Shown piece by piece: positions 9,531 to 61,545 of a stretch of 64,000 nucleotides of DNA. The number at the start of each line of letters is the position of its first letter. The first letter of the stretch is position 1. A program made the position numbers and the translations under genes. The DNA comes from Candidatus Aenigmatarchaeota archaeon (lineage in GTDB: Archaea > Aenigmatarchaeota > Aenigmatarchaeia > PWEA01): positions 35,928 through 99,927 of the forward strand of contig JBKHHE010000002.1 of the NCBI GenBank assembly GCA_046539305.1. Direction: 5' to 3'. The notes under the pieces are model-generated. The model was given only the letters and a program-made list of their open reading frames with translations, had not been told where the DNA came from and did not search any database.

Positions 9531-9669
9531 GCCGGGGTAGCGAAGCCTGGCCCACCGCGCCAGCTTGGAGACCTGAACAGAAAGCTGGTGTGCGTTATAA
9601 GATTGATGTGGTCTCGGACCACATCCTATGGCGAAGCACGCGTGGGTTCAAATCCCACCCCCGGCGCCA
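9531..9669 (+). tRNA. tRNA-Ser (anticodon GGA, class II); about 12-nt insertion after position 37 and an enlarged variable region holding a 9-bp hairpin. CCA is encoded
   Basis: Acceptor GCCGGGG/CCCCGGC; anticodon arm CCAGC-TTGGAGA...GCTGG; T-arm GTGGG-TTCAAAT-CCCAC; G discriminator then CCA. Confidence 0.65.
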
Positions 9670-27035: not shown

Positions 27036-27241
27036 GCCGGGGTAGCGAAGCCAGGTTCAACGCGCCGGATTTGAGACCGGATTTGTTGACGTGAGGATGA
27101 CAAAAGGTTTGCAAGAAATCCGGTGGGCCGTGTAGGACCTGCAGCCGCGGAAGCCCGCGTGGGTTCAAAAGAAAACCCTTTCAAAAAGTGTTTTCATTCC
27201 CAAAGGAGAAGGGGTTTCGGGAAGTCCCACCCCCGGCGCCA
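27036..27241 (+). tRNA. tRNA-Ser (anticodon TGA) with about a 42-nt intron at 37/38, an expanded variable arm and about a 56-nt insertion in the T-loop. CCA is encoded
   Basis: Acceptor GCCGGGG/CCCCGGC; anticodon arm CCGGA-TTTGAG[...]A-TCCGG; T-arm GTGGG-TTCAAA[...]T-CCCAC. Confidence 0.65.
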
Positions 27242-32914: not shown

Positions 32915-33012
32915 GCCGCGATGGTGTAGCGGCTCAACTCTCGAAGAGAGGGGGCCAAGCATAGAGCCCTGTCGAGGCTCTGACCCGGGTTCAAATCCCG
33001 GTCGCGGCGCCA
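32915..33012 (+). tRNA. tRNA-Asp (anticodon GTC) with about a 22-nt insertion in the D-loop region. CCA is encoded
   Basis: Acceptor GCCGCGA/TCGCGGC; anticodon arm GAGCC-CTGTCGA-GGCTC; T-arm CCGGG-TTCAAAT-CCCGG. Confidence 0.65.
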
Positions 33013-33050
33013 ACTAACAAATGACGTGGTCCTTGACCACGTCCTCTGCC

Positions 33051-33191
33051 GGGCCCGTAGCTCAGTCTGGGAGAGCACTGGGCTTTTAAGAACACTTTGG
33101 AAAAACGTTCATGGAAAAATATTTTGATGGACCTTTTTCGAAAAGGTTCTAAGACACCCAGGAGTCGCGGGTTCAAATCCCGTCGGGCCCA
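33051..33191 (+). tRNA. tRNA-Lys (anticodon TTT) with about a 67-nt intron at 37/38
   Basis: GGGCCCG-TA-GCTC-AGTCTGGGA-GAGC-A-CTGGG-CTTTTA[intron]A-CCCAG-GAGTC-GCGGG-TTCAAAT-CCCGT-CGGGCCC-A. Confidence 0.75.
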
Positions 33192-33338
33192 TTTAAGACT
33201 TTGTGTTTGTAAACATTCATATGGTAAAATCGACGAAAGATTTGGATGAAACCTTTGGGAAGAAGAATCTTCCCAATACTTGGAACTCGGTTCCAATATT
33301 TTCTAAAGGTTTCTTCCTGGATCCCGTCGGGCCCATAA
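33192..33338 (+). repeat. 147-bp element directly 3' of tRNA-Lys(TTT), ending in a 16-bp direct repeat of the tRNA 3' end (ATCCCGTCGGGCCCAT); identical to copy 2 at 41209-41355
   Basis: Exact sequence identity of the two copies; internal 9-bp hairpin TTGGGAAGA-AGA-ATCTTCCCAA and palindrome GGAACTCGGTTCC. Confidence 0.8.
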
Positions 33339-33707: not shown

Positions 33708-35207
33708 TTGTGGTTTGCCATGAGAAAGGGAAAATTTCAGTCCCTGTTGAAAGCGTTCAAATCTGAAAAGGGCTTCGCGCAGTACCAGATAGATGCCTTC
33801 AACCGTTTCGTTGACAAAAGGTTGCAGGCAATAATAGATGAGATAGGAACCATAGAGCCCGAATCAGAGAAGCTTGGAGAGTTCCTCATAGAGCTTGGAG
33901 AAGTGAGAGTGGGAAAACCATCAGTAAAGGAAGCTGACGGGAGCCTGAGACAGATACTGCCACAGGAGGCCAGGCTCCGTGACATAACTTACGCAGCTCC
34001 CATCTTTCTTGAAATGACTACAAAAGCCGACGGTGAGATACATGAAGAAAGGGAAGTTAAAATAGGTGAGCTCCCGATTATGGTTAGGTCCAAGAAGTGT
34101 CCTCTCTCAGATATGAGCGACGAGGAACTTATTGAGGCAGGGGAGGATCCGGAAGGCCTTGGAGGCTACTTCATTATAAATGGGACGGAAAGGGTATTGA
34201 TGCTTCTGGAGGAAGTCGCACCCAACAGAATAATAGTGGAGAAGAAGGACAAAAAGAAGGTTGAATACGCCGCCAGAGTAAATTCGGAAAGGAGGGGATG
34301 GGGACAGAGGCATACAATAAATAAAAGAAGGGACGGTCTTCTGACAATTTCTTTTGCAAACGTTCGAAAGGTTCCGTTGGTGGTAGTGATGAGGGCCCTG
34401 GGTCTAGAAACCGACAAAGATATCGTCGAATCTATAACGGAGGAGGAAGAATACCAGGAAGAGATATATGCTAACCTCTACGAAACCGAGGTTTCGGACA
34501 CGGAGGAGGCCCTGGACTACATAGGGAAAACCATGAACGTCTCGGAAAAGGATTATAGGAAGGAGAGGGCACAGGAAGTCATAGACAAATACCTCCTTCC
34601 TCATATAAGCCAGGACGAAGAAGACAGGCTTGATAAAGCAAAATACCTTGGAAGGACCGCGAAAAAGATACTGTACATCTCAAATGAAGATATGGAGCCG
34701 GACGATATAGATCACTACAGAAACAAGCGGCTGAGGACCAGCTCGGACCTGCTCGAAATACTTATTAGAAGTAAGCTTCTTGGAAGGGTGGGCCTGATAT
34801 CAAGGATAAAATATAACTACAAGAAGATAGCAAGAAGGGGGAAGGTGCCAACGATAAATACAGTGGTTGAATCGGACATGCTCACTGGCCAGATTCAATC
34901 CGCCTTCGCCACGGGACTCTGGGTTGGAGGCAGAACGGGGGTCTCCCAGAGGCTTGAAAGGACCAACTATGTGAAAACCCTCTCCCACCTGAGGAACGTG
35001 ACATCTCCCCTATCCACACAGCAGGAGCATTTCGACGCCAGACAGCTCCATGCCACCCACTGGGGACGTCTTGGAGCGACGCAGACGCCTGAAGGACCTA
35101 CCATCGGTCTGAGAAAATACCTCGCGATCATGGCATCCATATCTACTGGTCTTGATCAGGAGGAGGCAGAAGACGTCCTGAAGGGCCTGAAAACTGAAAT
35201 TTCATGA
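33708..35207 (+). CDS. rpoB2: DNA-directed RNA polymerase subunit B'' (N-terminal part of split B)
   Basis: RpoB N-terminal homology; separate ORF ends 4 nt before rpoB1. Confidence 0.93.
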   Translation: MWFAMRKGKFQSLLKAFKSEKGFAQYQIDAFNRFVDKRLQAIIDEIGTIEPESEKLGEFLIELGEVRVGKPSVKEADGSLRQILPQEARLRDITYAAPIFLEMTTKADGEIHEEREVKIGELPIMVRSKKCPLSDMSDEELIEAGEDPEGLGGYFIINGTERVLMLLEEVAPNRIIVEKKDKKKVEYAARVNSERRGWGQRHTINKRRDGLLTISFANVRKVPLVVVMRALGLETDKDIVESITEEEEYQEEIYANLYETEVSDTEEALDYIGKTMNVSEKDYRKERAQEVIDKYLLPHISQDEEDRLDKAKYLGRTAKKILYISNEDMEPDDIDHYRNKRLRTSSDLLEILIRSKLLGRVGLISRIKYNYKKIARRGKVPTINTVVESDMLTGQIQSAFATGLWVGGRTGVSQRLERTNYVKTLSHLRNVTSPLSTQQEHFDARQLHATHWGRLGATQTPEGPTIGLRKYLAIMASISTGLDQEEAEDVLKGLKTEIS

Positions 35208-35211
35208 TAAA

Positions 35212-37008
35212 ATGTCTGATGTATTTTTGAACGGACGGTTTGTAGGAGAAACGGAAGAGCCAAAGGAACTGGTCAGAGAAATTCGTGAGAAAAGAAGAGA
35301 TGACACAGTTCCTAAAGAGTTTAATATAAATTACAACAAGGAGGAAGGGAGTATACGGATAAACACCGATTCCGGTCGCGTCAGAAGACCACTGATAAGG
35401 GTGGAAGATGGAGAACCTTTGCTATCAGAAGAACACATGAAAAAACTGGAAGATGGAGAACTGGGATGGAAGGATCTGGTTGAGGAGGGTATAATCGAAT
35501 GGGTGGACGCGGAAGAGGAAGAGCTTCTGCTCATAGCTGCGGAAAAGGAAGAGCTTACCGAAGAGCACACACACCTTGAAATACACCCTGCAAACATACT
35601 TGGAATAAACGCTTCGCTCATACCGTTTCCCGAATACAACAGGGGAGACCGTATAAGTTACGGCGCGAAGATGATAGGGCAGACCCTGGGATTTTATAGC
35701 GCCAACTATCCCCTGAGGGCTGATACAAAAAGCAACCTTCTCACCTATCCACAGACTCCTCTTGTGACTACGCAGTCCGAAGCCGCGGTAGATCTAGAGA
35801 ACCACCCCGCAGGACAGAACGTAGTCGTGGCGCTTCTTTCCTACAAGGGTTTCAATATAGAAGACGCAGTTATAGTTAACAGGAGCAGCGTGGAAAGGGG
35901 ACTGGGAAGAAGCTACTTCTTCAGAACCTACGATGCCGAGAAACAGAGGTACTCGGGCGGCCAGGAGGACGAAATAAAGATTCCTGACAAGGATGTAAGA
36001 GGTTACAGATCCGAAGAAGCATACTCACGGCTTGCTGAAGACGGTGTAATCCCACCTGAGATGGAGGTGGGAAGTGGAGATGTACTCGTTGGGAAAACTT
36101 CCCCTCTGAGATTTATGGGGAGCGGAGACTTTGTCACAGGTATACAGAACAGAAGGGAAACCTCCGTAACCGTCAGACATGGCGAAGGTGGCGTAGCGGA
36201 CAAGGTTCTCCTTTCCGAAACGGAGGAGGGAAACAAACTTGTCAAGGTCACTTTAAGGGAGAAGAGAGTACCGGAGCTTGGAGATAAGTTCGCGACCAGA
36301 CATGGACAAAAGGGTGTGATAGGTCTCCTGGAGCCCGAAGAAAACCTTCCCTTCACCAAGGATGGTATAACCCCGGACATAATCCTAAATCCCCATGGAA
36401 TACCTTCCAGACAAACCGTAGGGCAGCTATTGGAGGTTTTAGCGGGCAAGACGGGCGCTCTTGGAGGAAAAAAGGTAGATGGAACTGCGTTCAGTGGTAG
36501 AGAAGAAAACGATTTAAGGGAAGAGCTGAGGGAACTGGGTTTCAGGTCCGATGGAAAGGAGGTACTATACAACGGGATGACGGGTGAAAGAATGGAAGCT
36601 GAAATCTTCCAGGGTGTCGTATACTACGAGAAACTTGAACACATGGTGTCCAACAAGATACATGCCAGGTCCCGTGGACCTGTTACTCTACTCACAAAGC
36701 AGCCCACTGAAGGAAGGGCGAAAGAAGGTGGGCTCCGGCTTGGAGAGATGGAAAAGGACTGTTTCGTCGGTCATGGCGCCTCAATGACCCTTAAAGAAAG
36801 GTTCTCCTCGGACGAGGTCAAACTACCGGTATGCAAAAAGTGTGGTATGATAGCAATGGAAAATGAAACGGAAGGAGAGGTCGTATGCCCGATGTGTAAG
36901 GGAAGTGAAACGGAAGAAGTGGAGATGAGCTATGCCTTCAAACTTCTCTTAGACGAGCTGAAATCAATGGTTATATACCCAAAACTGGATGTAGAGGAGA
37001 TGGTATAA
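35212..37008 (+). CDS. rpoB1: DNA-directed RNA polymerase subunit B' (C-terminal part of split B)
   Basis: RpoB C-terminal homology incl. zinc motif CKKCGMIAMEN...CPMC. Confidence 0.93.
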   Translation: MSDVFLNGRFVGETEEPKELVREIREKRRDDTVPKEFNINYNKEEGSIRINTDSGRVRRPLIRVEDGEPLLSEEHMKKLEDGELGWKDLVEEGIIEWVDAEEEELLLIAAEKEELTEEHTHLEIHPANILGINASLIPFPEYNRGDRISYGAKMIGQTLGFYSANYPLRADTKSNLLTYPQTPLVTTQSEAAVDLENHPAGQNVVVALLSYKGFNIEDAVIVNRSSVERGLGRSYFFRTYDAEKQRYSGGQEDEIKIPDKDVRGYRSEEAYSRLAEDGVIPPEMEVGSGDVLVGKTSPLRFMGSGDFVTGIQNRRETSVTVRHGEGGVADKVLLSETEEGNKLVKVTLREKRVPELGDKFATRHGQKGVIGLLEPEENLPFTKDGITPDIILNPHGIPSRQTVGQLLEVLAGKTGALGGKKVDGTAFSGREENDLREELRELGFRSDGKEVLYNGMTGERMEAEIFQGVVYYEKLEHMVSNKIHARSRGPVTLLTKQPTEGRAKEGGLRLGEMEKDCFVGHGASMTLKERFSSDEVKLPVCKKCGMIAMENETEGEVVCPMCKGSETEEVEMSYAFKLLLDELKSMVIYPKLDVEEMV

Positions 37009-41086: not shown

Positions 41087-41208
41087 GGGCCTGTAGCTCA
41101 GTCTGGGAGAGCGCTAGGCTCTTAACTTTTAAGAGCGCGTAATGGGACCGGTCGGTCCTTATGACGAAAGAAACCTAGAAGTCGCGGGTTCAAATCCCGT
41201 CGGGCCCA
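41087..41208 (+). tRNA. tRNA-Lys (anticodon CTT) with about a 48-nt intron at 37/38
   Basis: GGGCCTG-TA-GCTC-AGTCTGGGA-GAGC-G-CTAGG-CTCTTA[intron]A-CCTAG-AAGTC-GCGGG-TTCAAAT-CCCGT-CGGGCCC-A. Confidence 0.75.
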
Positions 41209-41355
41209 TTTAAGACTTTGTGTTTGTAAACATTCATATGGTAAAATCGACGAAAGATTTGGATGAAACCTTTGGGAAGAAGAATCTTCCCAATACTTGG
41301 AACTCGGTTCCAATATTTTCTAAAGGTTTCTTCCTGGATCCCGTCGGGCCCATAA
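41209..41355 (+). repeat. Second identical copy of the 147-bp tRNA-Lys-associated element with the 16-bp terminal direct repeat
   Basis: Identical to 33192-33338 over its full length; flanking sequence diverges immediately after ...GGGCCCATAA. Confidence 0.8.
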
Positions 41356-47116: not shown

Positions 47117-47330
47117 GCCGGCGTGGCCGAGTCAGGCTCAAGGCGGTGGATTCGAGTCCGGATATGTTGAGCAAACGCGATGAAAGAGAAACATCCACTG
47201 GGCGTTAAGGACAGAGCGCGTAGGTCTCACCTACGCCGGTCGACTAGGCCCGCGCAGGTTCAAAGGAACCTTTTTCGAAAAAAGGTTCATCAAAAAGGAG
47301 AAGGTTCGGGAAATCCTGCCGCCGGCGCCA
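47117..47330 (+). tRNA. tRNA-Ser (anticodon CGA) with three insertions: about 36 nt at 37/38, about 44 nt in the variable arm (8-bp hairpin) and about 48 nt in the T-loop. CCA is encoded
   Basis: Acceptor GCCGGCG/CGCCGGC; D-arm GCC...GGC; anticodon arm GTGGA-TTCGAG[...]A-TCCAC; variable stem GGGC/GCCC; T-arm GCAGG-TTCAAA[...]T-CCTGC; followed by an oligo-T tract. Confidence 0.65.
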
Positions 47331-47365
47331 TTTCTTTTTTTAATCATGAGATACACAGTCTCGAC

Positions 47366-49547: not shown

Positions 49548-50456
49548 TCAAACTTCCGGCTGAGTAGTAACAGTAACGTCGTCCTCTACGAAGTATCCGT
49601 AACGAAGTCTGATTTTTACGGGTATCGCCATCTCGGGCTCAACATCGTCTTCATCAATATCTATTCTGCATCCTTTCCTGAAGTCGTGATCCCAGAAACT
49701 TACCTCTCCAAATTCTCCTCCGTAAGCATCGGCACAGTCGCCTACAAGTTCTCCAGGGTCTCCGACATCTATCTTCATTTCTATAGTATTCCTATCCAGG
49801 TCGTCCAGGACGCTACCCTCCAGGTATGCGGTGCCAGGCCCGGTATTCTGGCCAATAATAGTCAGCCTGAAGTCATCACCACCTTCCTCTATAGAAGGTG
49901 CCCTGCCTGGCTCCGGCAGGCTCACGGAAAACGGTCCTGCGGAGGTCACCGGTGCTTCAACTGCAGGTATTTCTTCGTCCTCCCTTGCCCTTGCCCTGTG
50001 CTCGTTTCTGTTCAGGGCAGGAACGTTCACCTCGGCAACGGTTTCGTATTCGTAATATACCCTCACCTTCGGGTTGTCTGTCCGCTCGACTGACTCCACC
50101 TCTGGAGCTTCAAGGCTCCAGTCCTCCGTCCTCGACTCTCCCTGATATTCATCTGTGGCCTTCTCCAAGGTATCGATGTCTTTCGGATTATCTTCATTTT
50201 CCTTCAAACTCAGTTTTCCTCGGTTGAAGATTTGAGCTTTGATGTTTTCCGCATTTACTGTTCCCATATTTTTGACATCCAGTATGATTTCCAAATCCTC
50301 GTTACTATAGACGGCCTCTGGATAGGCCTCAAGTCTATCAATTATTACACCGTCTTGTTGCGGTTCTGACTCCTCCTCGCCGAAGTCTAAACAACCGGAA
50401 ACCGCAACTACAAGCAAAGATGTGATAAGTAAAGCACCGATCTTCTTAGCTCTCAT
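49548..50456 (-). CDS. Secreted CARDB-like lipoprotein, paralog 1 (signal peptide + VSGC lipobox-like cysteine)
   Basis: MRAKKIGALLITSLLVVAVSGC...; GGDDFRLTIIGQNTGPG motif; about 300 aa, acidic. Confidence 0.6.
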   Translation of the reverse strand: MRAKKIGALLITSLLVVAVSGCLDFGEEESEPQQDGVIIDRLEAYPEAVYSNEDLEIILDVKNMGTVNAENIKAQIFNRGKLSLKENEDNPKDIDTLEKATDEYQGESRTEDWSLEAPEVESVERTDNPKVRVYYEYETVAEVNVPALNRNEHRARAREDEEIPAVEAPVTSAGPFSVSLPEPGRAPSIEEGGDDFRLTIIGQNTGPGTAYLEGSVLDDLDRNTIEMKIDVGDPGELVGDCADAYGGEFGEVSFWDHDFRKGCRIDIDEDDVEPEMAIPVKIRLRYGYFVEDDVTVTTQPEV

Positions 50457-50505
50457 CTATCCACCTAATTGTATTTTGGAATATTTACTTTATAAGGCTT
50501 TGCCT

Positions 50506-51408
50506 TTAAGGTGCGACTGTCACGGAAACCATACCATCAATAATGTATCTGTAGTCAGCATATACTTCAAACGACTCCTCTTCAAGTATGTCCACCTTGT
50601 CAGGAGCAACAAAACGACAGGATATCGTGGAAGTTTCATCCTCATGGAAGTAAAGGTCATCGGCCAAAGTGAGGTTGCCATTCTCTTCAACCATCTTTCC
50701 CTGGCATCCACCTTTCTGGTTCAGCGAATCCTCGGGCCAGTCCAAGACCACGCTCCCCTCTTCAAGGACCTGATCCTTTACACTTCCCTCGCCGACGTTC
50801 CTGAACTTTATCTCAAGTATGAAATCATCTCCTCCCAGTACTGGCTGTTCGTCGGGTGTGGAGATGTTTATGTCAAGGGGCGAATCCCTCTTGAAATACC
50901 CCAGCTCCAAAGGCTCCTCAACGCCCTCATCCTTCCTCCTTAGAAACTCGTCCTCGGACATGATGGCGACGCCGTAGCTTGCATACCCTTCTGAATCGTA
51001 CCCAACCCTGTAACGGAAATTAGAAGTCCTGGCCATGGGGACATCTCCCGCCACAAACCCCCATTCCAGGTTTTTGATCTCTCCTGGTTTGAGATCGCCA
51101 ACCTCCTTCTCCTTGTACGCGTCCTCCTCCACCGACTCAAAATGGCCGAGGTCCGTCATCTTCAGCAAAACGTCGCCAACAGTGGCATTTCCTTCGTTCT
51201 CAATTTCGAACTGAAGCCTTGTCTTCCTGCCCACTTCAACTTCATCCCGCAGAGACTCCGCCGAAACCGAAACCTTTTCCGTGACTATATACTCCGGCTC
51301 ACCAACCCCCAGAATCCCTGCCAGGTCAACGTCCGTAGCGAAGCCCATACATCCCGATACACCTACTACAAGAAGTAAGGCCAGGAGAACAGCTGCCGTC
51401 TTATTCAT
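50506..51408 (-). CDS. Secreted CARDB-like lipoprotein, paralog 2
   Basis: MNKTAAVLLALLLVVGVSGC...; GGDDFILEIKFRNVGEG motif. Confidence 0.6.
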   Translation of the reverse strand: MNKTAAVLLALLLVVGVSGCMGFATDVDLAGILGVGEPEYIVTEKVSVSAESLRDEVEVGRKTRLQFEIENEGNATVGDVLLKMTDLGHFESVEEDAYKEKEVGDLKPGEIKNLEWGFVAGDVPMARTSNFRYRVGYDSEGYASYGVAIMSEDEFLRRKDEGVEEPLELGYFKRDSPLDINISTPDEQPVLGGDDFILEIKFRNVGEGSVKDQVLEEGSVVLDWPEDSLNQKGGCQGKMVEENGNLTLADDLYFHEDETSTISCRFVAPDKVDILEEESFEVYADYRYIIDGMVSVTVAP

Positions 51409-51430
51409 GTCTGATCAAGGGATTTGGAAT

Positions 51431-52354
51431 CTACGGCTCTACCTCTACACTATGCTCGTGCAAAAGCTCGTACTCGTAGTCGTTTATTTCGACCTGGACT
51501 GTCTGCTCCTCTACCGGGCCCGGTCCTTCTATTGTCGCGTCTTCAATGACGCAGGATATTCTCGGTGTGGAGCCCTCGCTGAAGTAAAGGGTTTTATCGG
51601 TATTCCTCATAGGCCATATACAGTATTTACCTCCATTATCCTGCTCTTCCGTGTAGAAGTCTTTTATTTCCTCGCCGTTGTGCTTTATCGTTATATCCTC
51701 GGTACCCAGCTCGGTTCCCATCTTTCCTTCGCCTGTGTTCTCCATGTAGATATCGAAACCAACATCAGTTTCCTCGATAAGGGGCTGGTCTCCCCAGAAG
51801 TCTATGTAGGCCTTGATAGGTCCGTCTGCGTAGCTCGCCGTCGGACTGACCCCTATGCTCTCACCTCTCCGGTCCATCTCCCTGACATGGTCCTGGGTCA
51901 CGAGGTATAGGTCGTGTGTGGACCGGGCGTCGAAGGTATAGCTCACTCTAAATCTAAGTGAACAGTCTCTTGGCATGTGTCCCATATCCTCGGAATCGGG
52001 CGTCTCAAAATTCCACCGAACCTCCCTCTCCCCTCCCCTGTATATGTCGTCATCTCTGATATCACTGCCTTCCGTTCGGTTACACATACCCCAATCGTAA
52101 AGTTCCACGTCAACACCTTCGGTGTCCTCATTCTCGTACAGATTCTTTACCAGGAAAGAAAACTCAAAGCCCGAATCCGAAGCTATGGGCGGATTGGGTA
52201 TTACATTTTTATCGGCAACCTCAAGAACGTCGCTGGGAGCTTCCTCTTCCTCCGTGCCGACGCCCATGATCCCGGCAAGGCCTCCTCCTTCCACACATCC
52301 AGAGGTAAATAAGACTAATCCCAGGGCCAGGATCAGAACCACAAACCTTTTCAT
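51431..52354 (-). CDS. Secreted CARDB-like lipoprotein, paralog 3
   Basis: MKRFVVLILALGLVLFTSGC...; similar size and motif layout. Confidence 0.6.
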   Translation of the reverse strand: MKRFVVLILALGLVLFTSGCVEGGGLAGIMGVGTEEEEAPSDVLEVADKNVIPNPPIASDSGFEFSFLVKNLYENEDTEGVDVELYDWGMCNRTEGSDIRDDDIYRGGEREVRWNFETPDSEDMGHMPRDCSLRFRVSYTFDARSTHDLYLVTQDHVREMDRRGESIGVSPTASYADGPIKAYIDFWGDQPLIEETDVGFDIYMENTGEGKMGTELGTEDITIKHNGEEIKDFYTEEQDNGGKYCIWPMRNTDKTLYFSEGSTPRISCVIEDATIEGPGPVEEQTVQVEINDYEYELLHEHSVEVEP

Positions 52355-52417
52355 AAAACCACTATATCTTGTTTTTGCTCCCCAGTAAATATAAATCTTT
52401 CCATTTACTCACCATCC

Positions 52418-55336
52418 TCATCCTCCTCCACCCCCACCATCGTCCTCATCTCCATCCTCTGGAACACATCTATAGACGTCTCCATCGCACTTGTAATCCT
52501 CCTCGAAGCTATCTTTACACCGACTATCGCCGTATTCATCGTGGCCAGGAATACATTCGTACCTCACCTCGACCGTGCTGGTCCTGCTGAACTGATACCT
52601 GTACTCTACCTCCGTCATCAGGTTTTTGGTCTGGTCAGGAGCACCATCTATGTCCAAGTGTTGTTCACCGTCGACGACACACCTCGCATCGATTGTCTCG
52701 TCCGGCTCCAGACCCAGCTTCTCACCTGTCTCATGCTCGTGTGCCTGCAGGCTCTCTATAGTTTCTAGCCTGTTGTTGATGTCCTTCTCTATAACCTTGC
52801 CGCATTCCTTTCCATCATTGCTTTCTACGGGTTCTCCGTCTATCGTTATATTTTTGATCGTTATATCTCTCAGATAGCCCTCGCCCCGGTTGGTCACGGG
52901 GAAGAAAAGGGTCCTGGTCTCACCGTCTTTCACGGGCTGCTGCGTGCCCACGCCGAGGCCGACAGCAAGGGGACCCCATTCGAACCTTGACGTGGGTTCA
53001 TAGAAATCTGTGTCACGGAGCTGGTCGTACCTGTCCTCGCTGTAAATTTCCACCTCCAGATCTGCGTAGGTGTGGACATCGTAGGCCGCGTCGATGCCGT
53101 AAGTCATGTACTCTCCAGGCTTCGCGTTTTCTTCGAAAGCAGTGTGTGTGACCGTGAAAGTGTGGGACTGTCCGGGTCTGAGGTCGACTTTACAGGGTTG
53201 TGAATCCCAATAAGCCCTATATGATTCTTCGTCATCATCGGATTCTGTGTGTCCACTCGCATCTTCACAAGGCGGACCAAACTCCCAACTGCTCCCTATA
53301 GTATTAAGAACGGGGCCGTCGGGCGACCATGTTTTCTCGGAGGTGTCGTAAATAGTCCTGGGAGCCAACTTGACATCCTCTACGGTAGGTGGTTCGTCGA
53401 CGTCTTCACGGGTCAGGGTATTCTTCAGGTCAAAGGTGTAAGTAAATATACCCTCTTCGTCAAAACCTTGGTCAGTTTTTATTGGTTCCTCAATCCTGTT
53501 CCCTGGAAGGCCTACCGGCTCCGGATTGGTTACCTCAACTGCCGTGTAGGACTTCTCAGCCTCGGTATCCGGCCGCCATATCTCCATACACGCCTGCGGT
53601 GACTGGAGACAGGTCCAGCCCTGGCCCATAGTCATCTGAATATCCTGGAAACCTGTAAGCATAGGAGAAGCTGCCGACTCAATTACCTGTATCCTGTTGT
53701 GCACGGTCGGCCACCAATCCCCAAATACAGCCTCCCCCATAACCTGTGGATAGGCCGTGGTTGCGGCCATAATTGCTATAGGTAAAACTATCATCCCCAT
53801 TACAGGCCTGGCCTCTGGAATAGGAACGGCTGTGGAGAGTCCCATCAAGACGATACCGATGTAAAGGACGGCCGCGACCGTGGTTCCCATGAGGGCGTAT
53901 CCACCCAAAACCAGGCCAATTAAGCCAGTAATTCCGGAAAACGCGGTACCGGCTTGTCCAGAACCAAAGGCCTTATACAAAAAAATTATCCCAATAAAAC
54001 CAGCAACCACTGGAAGTATCCAACGGGGGGAAATAATAATTGCCAGAATAACACCTATGATAATAAAAAAGATTAAAGATGTTTTTAAAATTCCCGGCGG
54101 TCCCTTGTTAACCGCTTCTATAAAGCCATCTGCCGCCTCCTTGAAACCTTTTGCTATTTCACCAGGCTTGCCTTCTCCGTAATCTCTAAATTTAGGAATT
54201 ACGATAAAGAAGGCTAATGAGAGAGAGAGTAGGGAAAGACCAAGTTTCCAATTTGTACTCCATATTCCGGAACCCCATACAAATGTCCAGTTGAATAGAG
54301 GTATCAGAACAAAAGCACCGTAAATAAACCTCATAATCATCATTATTCTTTCCAGCTGCCTCTCCTCTTCCCGGTCTGCAGAAGGCTTGCTGGGAAAGGT
54401 GAAGATTCCTATGGCCGCGACGATCATGGGGATCATCCTAAACACTGCCCGATCACCGACGAAAGCCAAAAGGCCGCCCGTAAGGAATATGAATCCGAAT
54501 ACCCTGAAACCGGGCTTCGCGTAGCCCCACGGAAGCGTCTTAGGAAAAATACGGTCGAAGACTAAACCAATTATTCCAAGCATGGTCAAGGCGTAGGCCA
54601 TTCCTCCGAAGCCTATCATCGGGAGGACTATGGCTATAATTAAAACCGCTATGAACATGAAAGCTATGCTTGCGACCCTCGAGCGCAGCGCCTCGCCAAA
54701 CTCGCTCGATGCCCTTTCCTTTTCCTCTTCCTTTTTATTCGCCTTTGCCGTTAATTCCTCCAGCCTTTCTGTGCTTCTAGCAAATTCTCCACATTTATTA
54801 CATTCCCACACTTCTTTATCCGGGTCGTAAGTCCAATCATCGTGGATTTCCTCGCAGTTGTCACAGTACCAGTTCCATTTGGATTCATCTTCCTCCGTTT
54901 CTTCGCCTTTTCCTTCTCCACTGTCTTTATCAGAAGGTGGAAGTCTCTCTTCAGCCTGCTTTTCTTGAATCATTTTATATAGCTCCTGTTCCTCATCTCC
55001 TGTCAAATTCCTGCCGCCTTGAAGTCCCCATTTCCTGACCTTCTGCTGAGCTTCCTGTAATTCTTCCCACGTCTCGGCTTTCTCTATCTTCTCTTTGATT
55101 TTTTCCTTATGCTCTTCTTTGGCTGCCTCCATCTCCGGCTCCCTTCTTTCTGTTTTTGGCTTCGGTTTTCCCTTCTCTTCCTTCCCGTAAACCCTGTCGG
55201 CGAGCTTTTCGATATAGTCGCGGCTCACGTTCTCGAAGACATCAGAAGTCCTGCGGACGGCCTCGTCTCTGGGAACTTCCATCTTCCTGTGGTTAATCAA
55301 AGCCTGCCTGGCTCTTTCACGGGGATCTTTGGGCAA
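52418..55336 (-). CDS. Large polytopic membrane protein (972 aa): charged coiled-coil N-terminus with a C4 zinc ribbon, at least 10 TM helices and a large cysteine-containing C-terminal ectodomain ending in poly-Gly
   Basis: WNWYCDNCEEIHDD...WECNKCGEF; long hydrophobic block at residues ~230-540; C-terminal ...CVPEDGDEDDGGGGGG. Confidence 0.6.
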   Translation of the reverse strand: MPKDPRERARQALINHRKMEVPRDEAVRRTSDVFENVSRDYIEKLADRVYGKEEKGKPKPKTERREPEMEAAKEEHKEKIKEKIEKAETWEELQEAQQKVRKWGLQGGRNLTGDEEQELYKMIQEKQAEERLPPSDKDSGEGKGEETEEDESKWNWYCDNCEEIHDDWTYDPDKEVWECNKCGEFARSTERLEELTAKANKKEEEKERASSEFGEALRSRVASIAFMFIAVLIIAIVLPMIGFGGMAYALTMLGIIGLVFDRIFPKTLPWGYAKPGFRVFGFIFLTGGLLAFVGDRAVFRMIPMIVAAIGIFTFPSKPSADREEERQLERIMMIMRFIYGAFVLIPLFNWTFVWGSGIWSTNWKLGLSLLSLSLAFFIVIPKFRDYGEGKPGEIAKGFKEAADGFIEAVNKGPPGILKTSLIFFIIIGVILAIIISPRWILPVVAGFIGIIFLYKAFGSGQAGTAFSGITGLIGLVLGGYALMGTTVAAVLYIGIVLMGLSTAVPIPEARPVMGMIVLPIAIMAATTAYPQVMGEAVFGDWWPTVHNRIQVIESAASPMLTGFQDIQMTMGQGWTCLQSPQACMEIWRPDTEAEKSYTAVEVTNPEPVGLPGNRIEEPIKTDQGFDEEGIFTYTFDLKNTLTREDVDEPPTVEDVKLAPRTIYDTSEKTWSPDGPVLNTIGSSWEFGPPCEDASGHTESDDDEESYRAYWDSQPCKVDLRPGQSHTFTVTHTAFEENAKPGEYMTYGIDAAYDVHTYADLEVEIYSEDRYDQLRDTDFYEPTSRFEWGPLAVGLGVGTQQPVKDGETRTLFFPVTNRGEGYLRDITIKNITIDGEPVESNDGKECGKVIEKDINNRLETIESLQAHEHETGEKLGLEPDETIDARCVVDGEQHLDIDGAPDQTKNLMTEVEYRYQFSRTSTVEVRYECIPGHDEYGDSRCKDSFEEDYKCDGDVYRCVPEDGDEDDGGGGGG

Positions 55337-61241: not shown

Positions 61242-61330
61242 GGAACGGGACCGCCGGGATTGACGGAGGAAGCTTTCCAAAACCTTCAATTCAAATATTC
61301 TTTTTCATGAATGTTTAAAAAAGATTCTGA

Positions 61331-61545
61331 TGGGACCGCCGGGATTCGAACCCGAGATCTCCGGCTTCCATGCCGCGCACGACGGAATTTACCGAAAGCG
61401 AAGCTTTCGTAAAACACGAAAACCCGCGTTTTCGGCGATTTACGCGCGGTGGCCTTATAAGACCGGCGCTTTGGTCAAGTCTTTCCCTTTTTGATGAACC
61501 TTTTTTCGAAAAAGGTTCTTTCTAACCAAGCTAAGCCACGGTCCC
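61331..61545 (-). tRNA. tRNA with two large insertions (about 50 nt in the D-loop, about 89 nt at 37/38); the anticodon reads TAT, so a candidate tRNA-Ile(UAU)
   Basis: Reverse complement gives GGGACCG-TG-GCTT-AGCTTGGTT[insertion]-AAGC-G-CCGGT-CTTATA[intron]A-GCCGG-AGATC-TCGGG-TTCGAAT-CCCGG-CGGTCCC-A. Confidence 0.5.

What the first reader, a model, noticed from the sequence alone, without database searches (positions are those of the whole stretch)
41209..41355. Second copy of the tRNA-Lys-associated 147-bp element (downstream of nusA / tRNA-Lys CUU)
This copy is reported separately because it sits at the end of the rpoH-rpoB-rpoA-nusA operon, between tRNA-Lys(CUU) and the convergent EF-1beta/L37e/LSm genes. 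The copy is identical to the first. Together with the identical 16-bp flanking repeat, this points to a recent duplicative event (mobility or gene conversion) rather than ancient conserved sequence. It also creates two identical spurious antisense ORFs (32991-33296 and 41122-41313, both starting MEPSSKYWEDSSSQRFHPNLSS).
Basis: seen in the sequence. Interest (0 to 1): 0.55.

Follow-up and report, generated by a model that had tools for sequence, protein, structure and literature searches.

The report
Tiny insertion copying the tRNA-Lys tail
A 144-base non-coding insertion, seen only in this one archaeal (Aenigmatarchaeota) species, sits directly behind both lysine tRNA genes, with a shorter relative behind an isoleucine tRNA gene, and each time repeats the last 15 bases of the tRNA, so it looks like a small mobile or once-mobile DNA element rather than an old conserved functional sequence.

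Summary
Window 41209-41355 is 100% identical to 33192-33338. Each copy starts right after an intron-containing tRNA-Lys gene and ends with a repeat of tRNA positions 59-73 (ATCCCGTCGGGCCCA). Independent assemblies of the same species contain both copies.

Eight related species keep the same gene order but have neither the insert nor the repeat. It is therefore a clean 144-nt insertion (129 nt plus a 15-nt target duplication) that leaves the tRNA intact.

It has no coding signal, no Rfam match, no terminal inverted repeats and no bulge-helix-bulge splice motif.

I found a third case in the window. tRNA-Ile(UAU) on the minus strand is followed by a related 70-nt insert and then a repeat of its own positions 59-72. 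One other species has a diverged copy at that site with a decayed repeat; three species have an empty site.

The short inserts also resemble the canonical intron of this genome's tRNA-Lys(UUU). The folded core of the Lys insert resembles the intron 5' domain of relatives.

Best reading: a small family of non-autonomous elements that target tRNA 3' ends and are related to introns, inserted with a 14-16-bp target duplication. The enzyme is unknown (casposase-like, tyrosine integrase or RNA-mediated). The two Lys copies are kept identical by recent copying or gene conversion.

The parts
41087..41208 (+). tRNA-Lys(CUU) gene. 5' exon 41087-41124, canonical intron about 41125-41172 (48 nt), 3' exon 41173-41208. 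The gene is complete without the downstream element.
   Evidence: Rfam tRNA 57 bits; ARAGORN with introns; sequence
41194..41208 (+). Direct repeat copy 1: tRNA positions 59-73 (ATCCCGTCGGGCCCA), part of the functional tRNA. The following T (41209) is also repeated.
41209..41337 (+). Unique 129-nt body of the insertion (copy 2). It is non-coding and strongly folded.
   Evidence: Identity to 33192-33320. Fold -47.1 kcal/mol, z = -4.2. No homolog elsewhere in the window or in 26 related loci. No protein relatives.
41266..41330 (+). Three-way-junction core: closing helix GAAACCTTT/AAAGGTTTC, hairpin GGGAAG..CTTCCC and hairpin TTGGAAC-TCG-GTTCCAA. It resembles the 5' domain of tRNA-Lys(UUU) introns of related species.
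   Evidence: Fold. A covariance model built only from L014/L015/L022 introns gives 17.9 bits, E = 0.048, the top hit in the window. Pairwise z = 6.2 against the L015 intron. A sequence-only HMM is not significant (E = 1.9).
41338..41352 (+). Direct repeat copy 2 (a duplicate of tRNA positions 59-73). It is followed by T and then the original flank TAA...
33051..33191 (+). tRNA-Lys(UUU) gene. Its 67-nt canonical intron (33089-33155) is unlike the introns of relatives but is related to the tRNA-Ile insert family.
33192..33335 (+). Copy 1 of the insertion: 129-nt body 33192-33320 plus repeat 33321-33335. It lies between tRNA-Lys(UUU) and the rpoH promoter region.
61331..61545 (-). tRNA-Ile(UAU) gene with a D-loop intron (61473-61520) and a long canonical intron. 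Positions 59-73 are 61345-61331.
   Evidence: Sequence. Splicing in silico gives a 78-nt tRNA-Ile(tat) recognised by ARAGORN. Coordinates.
61247..61330 (-). Third member of the family: a 70-nt insert (61330-61261) right after tRNA-Ile, followed by a repeat of that tRNA's own positions 59-72 (ATCCCGGCGGTCCC, 61260-61247).
   Evidence: Present in the sister MAG and a Logan contig. Similar to the Lys insert (z = 4.6) and to the UUU intron (z = 4.8).

Best explanation
The element is a lineage-specific insertion of a small, non-coding, non-autonomous DNA element. It belongs to a small family that lands at the 3' end of tRNA genes in this Aenigmatarchaeota (DPANN) lineage.

Shown:
- A 129-nt body plus a duplicate of tRNA positions 59-73 has been added directly after both tRNA-Lys genes.
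- A related 70-nt body plus a duplicate of positions 59-72 has been added after tRNA-Ile.
- The upstream repeat copy is the working end of the tRNA, so the tRNA stays intact and needs no splicing.
- The downstream repeat copy is dispensable. It carries one mismatch at the Ile site and has decayed in another species.

Inferred:
- The repeat has the sequence of whichever tRNA was hit, but it always starts at position 59 and reaches the tRNA end. I therefore infer a target-site duplication made by staggered cutting about 14-16 bp apart, next to the T-loop, by an enzyme supplied in trans. A casposase-like integrase is the closest known chemistry.
- The two Lys copies then arose by repeated insertion, or by gene conversion between the two tRNA-Lys 3' regions, which share 29 nt on the left and the 15-16-nt repeat on the right.
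- The body appears to be built from tRNA-intron-like material.
- It probably has no function for the cell.
For: - Both copies are real and identical and occur in independent assemblies.
- Eight relatives with the same gene order lack the insert and the repeat at both tRNA-Lys sites. At some sites their post-tRNA sequence begins like what follows the second repeat here (both start TAA).
- A systematic scan of the window and all loci fetched up to that point (about 40, mostly relatives) for 'tRNA positions 59-72 repeated downstream' finds only three sites, all in this species: Lys UUU, Lys CUU and Ile UAU. The repeat starts at position 59 every time and carries the local tRNA's own sequence.
- At the tRNA-Ile site three related species are empty. 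One (L046, GCA_046540935.1) has a homologous insert (z = 7.9; nhmmer E = 0.0035) whose downstream repeat has decayed.
- Family links: Ile insert against Lys insert z = 4.6 (0 of 2000 shuffles). Ile inserts against this genome's tRNA-Lys(UUU) intron z = 4.8 to 5.2, and an HMM of the two Ile inserts finds that intron as the best non-self hit (E = 0.024). The Lys core against relatives' intron 5' domain: covariance model E = 0.048, top hit.
- No coding signal and no Rfam family.
- The inserts carry 3 of the 31 differences between two 99.9%-identical strains in 1% of the compared length (expected 0.3), which fits weak constraint.
- Casposase insertions give 14-16-bp duplications at a tRNA 3' end next to the T-loop and need only the last 5 nt of the element (PMC5137440, PMC6614799).
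Against: - No integrase, transposase or Cas1 gene was found in the 64-kb window. The rest of the genome could not be searched.
- There are no terminal inverted repeats and no shared terminal 5-mers.
- Only three insert sites (plus one related intron) are known in this species, and one in another species.
- No empty-site allele was seen within the species, and no copy occurs away from a tRNA gene.
- Nothing was found in viral or JGI metagenome collections.
- The link between the Lys and Ile inserts is moderate (pairwise z = 4.6, but HMM E is about 4).
- A 14-bp repeat of the 3'-distal tRNA is also the signature of SNJ2-type tyrosine integrases (PMC5861418).
- Identity of the two Lys copies, and their shared SNP, could partly be a consensus effect of short-read assembly.
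Confidence: 0.55

Rival explanations
1. Scar of integrated viruses or plasmids. A tyrosine integrase (for example the SNJ2 type, with a 14-bp core equal to the 3'-distal tRNA) integrated larger elements into tRNA-Lys and tRNA-Ile. Later deletions left only the arm sequences next to attL and attR. Related elements have related arms, which would explain the family resemblance.
For: An intact tRNA on one side and a 14-16-nt partial copy on the other is the classic integration footprint (PMC9897764, PMC5861418). The repeat ends exactly at the tRNA end, as expected if the element must restore the tRNA. The lineage lives in hypersaline and soda-lake settings, judging from the titles of related MAGs.
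Against: - The two tRNA-Lys sites carry exactly the same 129 nt, so the same deletion would have had to be copied.
- Each site would need its own matching attP core, yet the bodies are related.
- No integrase gene is nearby.
- The reconstituted attP junction (...CCTGG-core-TTTAAG...) is absent from viral contigs and JGI metagenomes.
- It does not explain the similarity to a tRNA intron.
Confidence: 0.2
2. RNA-mediated insertion. Excised tRNA-Lys intron RNA was copied by a reverse transcriptase together with the 3' end of a tRNA. Copying of the tRNA stopped at the modified base m1A58, which is why the repeat starts at position 59. The cDNA then recombined into the tRNA gene.
For: The repeat starts exactly at position 59 at all sites. 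The roughly 68-nt inserts align end to end with a genuine intron of the same genome. The stop of reverse transcriptases at m1A58, which defines the retroviral primer-binding site, is from my own knowledge and was not tested here.
Against: No reverse transcriptase was seen. No CCA follows the second repeat. The Ile inserts of two species resemble each other more than they resemble the intron. Several template switches would be needed.
Confidence: 0.08
3. A cryptic or former T-loop intron (position 58/59 or 59/60). In this reading the real 3' exon is the second repeat, and the first repeat plus body is, or once was, spliced out.
For: This genome has a genuine T-loop intron at 59/60 in another tRNA (47265-47313), with a clear splice motif. 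The body is related to intron sequences.
Against: No bulge-helix-bulge motif exists at any register that would restore the tRNA, nor in a reconstructed 'ancestral' form (and inspection of the sequence). The same script does find the motif in the positive controls. The tRNA is complete without splicing. No relative has a T-loop intron in tRNA-Lys or tRNA-Ile. The second repeat decays in L046.
Confidence: 0.06
4. A functional structured RNA or DNA signal recruited behind these tRNA genes, such as a small RNA, a processing signal, a terminator or a protein-binding site. On this view selection, not recent copying, explains the identity of the copies.
For: Strong predicted fold (z = -4.2 on both strands). 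The three-way junction is shared with relatives' introns. The tRNA-Ile insert is retained at about 68% of aligned columns in a second species whose neighbouring protein is only 61% identical.
Against: Absent from eight relatives at the Lys sites and from three at the Ile site. No Rfam match. The predicted folds of the two Ile inserts differ. SNPs are enriched between near-identical strains. The three genomic contexts differ.
Confidence: 0.09
5. Assembly artefact: a collapsed or duplicated repeat in a metagenome-assembled genome.
For: The two copies are identical, and both carry the same SNP in the sister MAG. Consensus calling through a collapsed repeat node could produce that.
Against: Two independent MAG assemblies agree. 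Logan contigs from SRR21542052, SRR19844286, SRR19844287 and SRR21542051 confirm three of the four junctions directly: tRNA-CUU into the repeat, the repeat into the rpoH upstream region, and the repeat into the EF-1beta downstream region. The flanks match the gene order of relatives. The single-copy tRNA-Ile insert has the same anatomy.
Confidence: 0.02

Closest known systems
Casposon integration by Cas1-like casposases (Aciduliprofundum boonei, Methanosarcina mazei, Nitrosopumilus)
   Same: A 14-16-bp target duplication. The target is the 3' end of a tRNA gene next to the T-loop, and the tRNA is kept intact. Only the last 5 nt of the element matter for integration, so long inverted repeats are not strictly needed (PMC5137440, PMC6614799).
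   Different: There is no Cas1, no PolB and no gene at all; the element is 70-129 nt rather than many kb. There are no terminal inverted repeats and no shared terminal 5-mers. The duplication starts inside the T-loop at position 59, not 8 bp downstream of TCAAATC. Whether this genome has a casposase is unknown.
tRNA-gene integration by archaeal tyrosine integrases (SNJ2 type with a 14-bp core; also SSV/pTN3 type, the latter from memory) and the resulting partial tRNA copies
   Same: A complete tRNA plus a partial 3' copy bracket the inserted DNA. The repeat length of 14-16 nt equals the SNJ2 core (PMC5861418, PMC9897764).
   Different: The inserted DNA is 70-129 nt with no integrase, against 9-23 kb in the described cases. 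The same body sits at two sites. The repeat follows the target sequence at Lys and at Ile. No attP was found.
Archaeal bulge-helix-bulge tRNA introns, and intron transposition as described for Thermoproteales (Fujishima et al. 2010, from memory, not read here)
   Same: Related short sequences occur at different positions of different tRNA genes in one genome. One family member is a genuine canonical intron, in tRNA-Lys(UUU). The same genome also shares a 47-nt module between a T-loop intron and a D-loop intron.
   Different: The Lys and Ile inserts lie after the tRNA end, have no splice motif, and are flanked by a 15-nt duplication that makes splicing unnecessary.
MITEs (miniature inverted-repeat transposable elements)
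   Same: Small, non-coding, strongly folded, more than one identical copy, dependent on an enzyme supplied in trans.
   Different: No terminal inverted repeats. The duplication is far longer than the 2-10 bp usual for DDE transposons (from my own knowledge). The target is strictly the tRNA 3' end.

Membership tests
Casposon-type (casposase-mediated) insertion | Target-site duplication of about 14-16 bp flanking the insert | tested here: met
   15-16 nt at both tRNA-Lys sites. At tRNA-Ile, 14 nt exact, or 16 nt with one mismatch.
Casposon-type (casposase-mediated) insertion | Insertion at a specific site next to the T-loop at the 3' end of a tRNA gene | tested here: met
   All three sites; the duplication starts at tRNA position 59. 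The register differs from A. boonei, where it lies 8 bp after TCAAATC (PMC6614799).
Casposon-type (casposase-mediated) insertion | Terminal inverted repeats, or at least shared terminal nucleotides at both 3' ends | tested here: not met
   The best inverted match pairs the right end with an internal segment, not with the left terminus. The termini (..CCTGG / TTTAAG....CGTCA / TCAGAA..) share no 5-mer (read from the sequence).
Casposon-type (casposase-mediated) insertion | Cas1-solo and family B polymerase genes in the element or elsewhere in the genome | not testable with these tools
   None in the element (no ORF with relatives) and none in the 64-kb window.
Integrated element with tyrosine-integrase att sites in a tRNA gene | Intact tRNA at one end and a direct repeat of the tRNA's 3'-distal part at the other | tested here: met
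Integrated element with tyrosine-integrase att sites in a tRNA gene | Integrase gene inside or next to the bracketed DNA | tested here: not met
   The bracketed DNA is 70-129 nt. The neighbours are rpoH, EF-1beta and a conserved 163-aa gene. Pfam scans of unknown window ORFs found no integrase.
Integrated element with tyrosine-integrase att sites in a tRNA gene | A free or circular form with the reconstituted attP junction exists somewhere | tested here: not met
   The junction pattern is absent from viral contigs. The right-junction pattern gave only two chance hits in high-GC bacterial genes in JGI metagenomes. These collections appear not to contain this species, so the negative result is weak.
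Archaeal bulge-helix-bulge tRNA intron (non-canonical position) | A bulge-helix-bulge motif formed at the two boundaries | tested here: not met
   No register from 41185 to 41214 gives the motif. The same script finds it for the T-loop intron at 47265-47313 and for the tRNA-Lys(UUU) canonical intron; the tRNA-Lys(CUU) canonical intron scores weaker (second rank).
Archaeal bulge-helix-bulge tRNA intron (non-canonical position) | The tRNA is incomplete unless the sequence is removed | tested here: not met
   The tRNA ending at the first repeat is complete (Rfam 57 and 56.6 bits).
MITE | Terminal inverted repeats and a short target duplication | tested here: not met
   No terminal inverted repeats; the duplication is 15-16 nt.
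Any described RNA family (Rfam 15) | Match to a curated covariance model | tested here: not met
   Only the tRNA itself matches. The best other hits have E of at least 0.06 and lie far below their gathering scores.

The most novel reading that the evidence does not exclude
The same roughly 68-nt sequence family serves in one genome as a genuine spliced tRNA intron (tRNA-Lys UUU, position 37/38) and as a DNA insertion flanked by a target duplication behind tRNA-Ile and, in an enlarged form, behind both tRNA-Lys genes. If that holds, these would be archaeal tRNA introns, or their precursors, caught moving as DNA-level mobile elements. The insertion mechanism would measure from the T-loop (position 58/59), either through a casposase-like integrase acting on tiny non-autonomous substrates or through reverse transcription that stops at m1A58.
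Probability: 0.2. Interest if true: 0.8.

Novelty: new variant of a known kind. Interest (0 to 1): 0.55.

Why it matters
How archaeal tRNA introns are gained, move between positions and relate to the mobile elements that target tRNA genes is an old open question. This locus gives a concrete, testable case. A small family of non-coding sequences appears once as a canonical intron and three times as insertions that duplicate tRNA positions 59-73. Empty and filled sites exist in related species, and one older copy has a decaying repeat. If an enzyme can be tied to it, this would be the first natural miniature passenger of a casposase-like or tRNA-targeting integrase, found in a DPANN archaeon with a very small genome. 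If not, it is still a useful warning for annotation: partial tRNA copies and 'ORFs' behind tRNA genes are insertion footprints. It also shows that identity between repeat copies in short-read MAGs should not be over-read.

Tried and rejected
- Known RNA family: Rfam at gathering and at E-value thresholds finds nothing but the tRNA.
- Protein-coding: all six frames, concatenated, have no relative among 5.8 billion proteins.
- Splice motif: no bulge-helix-bulge motif at any register that restores the tRNA. An apparent hit joining the D-arm to the element's end is at chance level; I estimate about 3 such hits for the pairs searched.
- Terminal inverted repeats: none.
- Other copies or a parent element: no homolog of the 129-nt body elsewhere in the window or in 26 related loci. 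Five viral-contig scans returned zero, including the tRNA-Lys 3' end and a reconstituted attP. Two JGI metagenome scans gave zero hits and two chance hits.
- Origin by duplication of the local flank or rpoH promoter: similarity to the flanks is not significant (z at most 2.2).
- Circularly permuted copy of an L015-type intron: the doubled-intron alignment scores higher (56 against 41), but the left half alone is not significant (z = 0.8), so I dropped the idea.
- Tandem duplication of 'intron + 3' exon' of the same gene: the 3' exon part is not significantly similar, and the tRNA-Ile insert resembles the Lys intron rather than the Ile intron.
- tRNA-like minihelix at the element's base: the equivalent of A73 is paired in the predicted fold, so it does not resemble a tRNA end.
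- Integrase, transposase or Cas1 in the window: none.
- The 225-nt spacers behind tRNA-Asp in relatives turned out to hold what looks like a small cysteine-rich ORF, not a family member.

Full report
**1. The observation**

Window 41209-41355 is 100% identical to 33192-33338. The repeat finder reports the pair as 188 nt at 98%, because it also takes in the similar 3' exons of two tRNA genes. Perfect identity runs 29 nt to the left into the shared T-arm/acceptor sequence. On the right it stops exactly after GGGCCCATAA.

Each copy begins at the first base after an intron-containing tRNA-Lys gene: CUU at 41087-41208 and UUU at 33051-33191 (Rfam tRNA 57 and 56.6 bits; ARAGORN with introns allowed).

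Each copy ends with ATCCCGTCGGGCCCA(T), which is the tRNA's own positions 59-73 plus one base. So the anatomy is: complete tRNA, a 129-nt body, then a 15-nt repeat of the tRNA tail.

rpoH, split rpoB, split rpoA and nusA lie upstream. EF-1beta, L37e and LSm converge from downstream. The two antisense ORFs exist and start with the translation of the element.

**2. Is it real?**

The organism is a Candidatus Aenigmatarchaeota (DPANN) archaeon, judging from source names and record titles.

A second assembly of the same species (GCA_046545755.1) is 99.914% identical over 18.5 kb and has both copies. Logan contigs from four sequencing runs start or stop exactly 30 nt into the repeat when approached from the unique sides (rpoH side, EF-1beta side, tRNA-CUU side). 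A k=31 assembler does this at a true repeat. The flanks match the gene order of related species. An assembly artefact is very unlikely.

One caveat remains. Perfect identity between the two copies, and the fact that both copies in the sister assembly carry the same T-to-G change, could be real concerted evolution. It could also be consensus calling through a collapsed repeat node. Only reads anchored in the unique flanks can tell.

**3. It is an insertion**

I aligned NusA homologs and used them to fetch 26 loci from one genome per species. Eight relatives (NusA 70-83% identical) keep the order tRNA-Asp, tRNA-Lys(UUU), rpoH ... nusA, tRNA-Lys(CUU). None has the body or a second copy of the tRNA tail at either site.

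In some relatives the sequence right after the tRNA (TAACAACC..., TAACCAGAC...) begins like what follows the second repeat in the window (TAAGAACC..., TAAATTTAG...).

The 129-nt body has no detectable relative elsewhere in the window or in the 26 loci. It is also absent from viral contigs and from JGI metagenomes (the two hits are chance matches in high-GC bacterial genes).

**4. What it is not**

- Not a described RNA family.
- Not coding. The six frames have no relative among 5.8 billion proteins, so the ORFs are spurious.
- Not a classical MITE. There are no terminal inverted repeats; the best inverted match pairs the right end with an internal segment.
- Not a standard archaeal intron. No bulge-helix-bulge motif exists at any register that would restore the tRNA. 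The same script recovers the motif for a genuine T-loop intron in this window (47265-47313, position 59/60) and for the tRNA-Lys(UUU) canonical intron; the CUU intron scores lower. The tRNA is also complete without any removal.

The body does fold strongly (-47.1 kcal/mol, z = -4.2; the reverse strand is similar). The fold is a long imperfect hairpin in which the second repeat pairs with an internal segment. It is capped by a three-way junction: helix GAAACCTTT/AAAGGTTTC plus two hairpins.

**5. A third case and a family**

While following a shared 11-mer I found that tRNA-Ile(UAU) on the minus strand (61545-61331) has the same downstream anatomy. This tRNA has two introns and is recognised by ARAGORN after in-silico splicing. 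It is followed by a 70-nt body (61330-61261) and then ATCCCGGCGGTCCC, its own positions 59-72 (61260-61247).

A systematic scan of the window and all loci fetched up to that point for this signature finds only these three sites. The repeat always starts at position 59 and always carries the local tRNA's sequence. The Ile insert is present in the sister assembly (with one SNP) and in a Logan contig.

At the syntenic tRNA-Ile site in other species:
- three species are empty (L044/45, L047/48, L052/53);
- one has unrelated DNA (L049);
- one (L046, GCA_046540935.1) has a homologous 69-nt body (51 of 75 aligned columns identical, z = 7.9; nhmmer E = 0.0035), followed by a decayed repeat ATCCTCGTCCTAC.

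The downstream repeat is therefore a dispensable by-product, not a functional part.

**6. Links to introns**

- The Ile body is similar to the Lys body in the same orientation (z = 4.6, 0 of 2000 dinucleotide shuffles).
- It also aligns end to end with the 67-nt canonical intron of this genome's tRNA-Lys(UUU) (z = 4.8; L046 body against that intron, z = 5.2).
- An HMM built from the two Ile bodies alone finds that intron as the best non-self hit in the window (E = 0.024). The Lys body reaches only E of about 4.
- The window's UUU intron is unlike the UUU introns of the relatives.
- The three-way-junction core of the Lys body resembles the 5' domain (anticodon loop plus intron) of tRNA-Lys(UUU) in L014, L015 and L022. 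Pairwise z = 6.2 against L015. A covariance model built from those three only ranks the two Lys copies first in the window at 17.9 bits (E = 0.048, rough), and the next hit scores 12.8 bits. A sequence-only HMM is not significant (E = 1.9).

I treat these links as moderately supported, not proven.

The same genome also shares a 47-nt module (89% identical) between a T-loop intron and the D-loop intron of tRNA-Ile. Short sequences do move among tRNA genes here.

**7. Rate of change**

Between the window and the sister assembly there are 31 differences in 33.2 kb. Three lie in the 328 nt of the inserts, where 0.3 is expected. That fits weakly constrained DNA. The predicted folds of the two Ile bodies differ.

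**8. Mechanism**

Shown: insertion directly after the tRNA, a duplicated tail from position 59 to the tRNA end, an intact tRNA, target-specific repeats, related bodies, and absence from most relatives.

Inferred: because the repeat takes the sequence of whichever tRNA was hit but keeps its start at position 59, it is most simply a target-site duplication. It would arise from cuts staggered by 14-16 bp and measured from the T-loop. The closest known chemistry is casposase integration:
- a 14-16-bp duplication at the 3' end of tRNA-Pro;
- recognition of the T-loop motif TCAAATC;

Against membership in that family: no Cas1 or PolB was seen, there are no shared termini, and the register differs.

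The main rival is a scar of integration by a tyrosine integrase. SNJ2-type enzymes use a 14-bp core equal to the 3'-distal tRNA (PMC5861418), and partial tRNA copies normally bracket 9-23 kb (PMC9897764). That rival needs the same internal deletion at two sites and a separate matching core for the Ile and Lys elements.

A speculative third route is RNA-mediated: intron RNA plus a cDNA of the tRNA tail that stops at m1A58. This would explain both the start at position 59 and the intron likeness. But there is no reverse transcriptase and no CCA.

The two identical Lys copies arose either by two insertions of the same element or by gene conversion. The two sites share 29 nt on the left and the 15-16-nt repeat on the right.

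**9. Verdict**

It is a new variant of a known kind: an insertion targeted to a tRNA gene with a target or att duplication. Here it is miniature, non-coding, related to introns, and found in a DPANN archaeon.

Interest is moderate. The anatomy is clean and the link to introns is intriguing. But there are few copies, the family links are of moderate significance, and the enzyme is unknown.

Noticed in passing
window 47257-47303 (+) and 61481-61527 (module on the minus strand): A 47-nt palindrome-containing module (GGAACCTTTTTCGAAAAAAGGTTCATCAAAAAGG..., 89% identical) lies inside two different tRNA introns at different positions. One is the T-loop intron (59/60, clear bulge-helix-bulge motif) of a class II tRNA at 47117-47331. 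The other is the D-loop intron of tRNA-Ile(UAU) at 61473-61520. This looks like intron or module spread between tRNA genes within one genome. A related palindrome sits in the tRNA-Lys(UUU) intron.
   Followed up: partly
window 47117-47331 (+): A tRNA with Ser(CGA)-like anticodon loop ending in CGCCGGCGCCA, missed by default ARAGORN and by Rfam. After removing the canonical and T-loop introns it is still about 128 nt, so it may hold a third insertion in the variable region. Its identity is not settled.
   Followed up: partly
window 33089-33155 (+): The canonical intron of tRNA-Lys(UUU) in this species is unrelated to the introns of six relatives, which end in ..GATGA(A/G)GAAAGAA. Instead it aligns end to end with the insert behind tRNA-Ile. 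The intron seems to have been replaced in this lineage.
   Followed up: partly
L014:2521-2592, L015:2561-2632, L022:381-451, compared with L009, L011, L012: Three relatives carry a two-hairpin module of about 48 nt at the 5' end of the tRNA-Lys(UUU) intron. Three others have only about 4 nt at that place, a clean insertion/deletion difference inside an intron.
   Followed up: partly
window 33297, 41314, 61288: Of 31 differences between this genome and GCA_046545755.1 over 33.2 kb, three fall in the tRNA-associated inserts, and the two Lys copies carry the same T-to-G change. This is either gene conversion or a consensus effect of the assembly.
   Followed up: partly
L009:2339-2561, L011:2318-2541, L012, L014, L022 (spacer between tRNA-Asp and tRNA-Lys): Five relatives have what looks like a small cysteine-rich ORF (about 65 aa) between tRNA-Asp and tRNA-Lys(UUU). 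The window (38-nt spacer) and L015 (13-nt spacer) lack it.
   Followed up: no
L049:1999-2654: In one relative the DNA after tRNA-Ile holds an unrelated insert of about 400 nt with a called 57-aa gene and no tRNA-tail repeat.
   Followed up: no
window 49548-55336 (-): Three consecutive ORFs of about 300 aa and one of 972 aa have no solid Pfam match, only faint CARDB / DUF7507-like hits. They may be surface proteins.
   Followed up: no
window 27036-27081 and 9531-9669 (+): Two further tRNA-like starts share a 46-nt 5' part (83% identical). The one at 27036 is not called by Rfam or ARAGORN and may be another multi-intron or split tRNA.
   Followed up: no
window 33708-37008 compared with L005: The split rpoB genes are called as 499 + 598 aa here but as 495 + 604 aa (overlapping) in GCA_046545755.1, although the DNA is nearly identical. 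This is a difference in gene calling, not in sequence.
   Followed up: no
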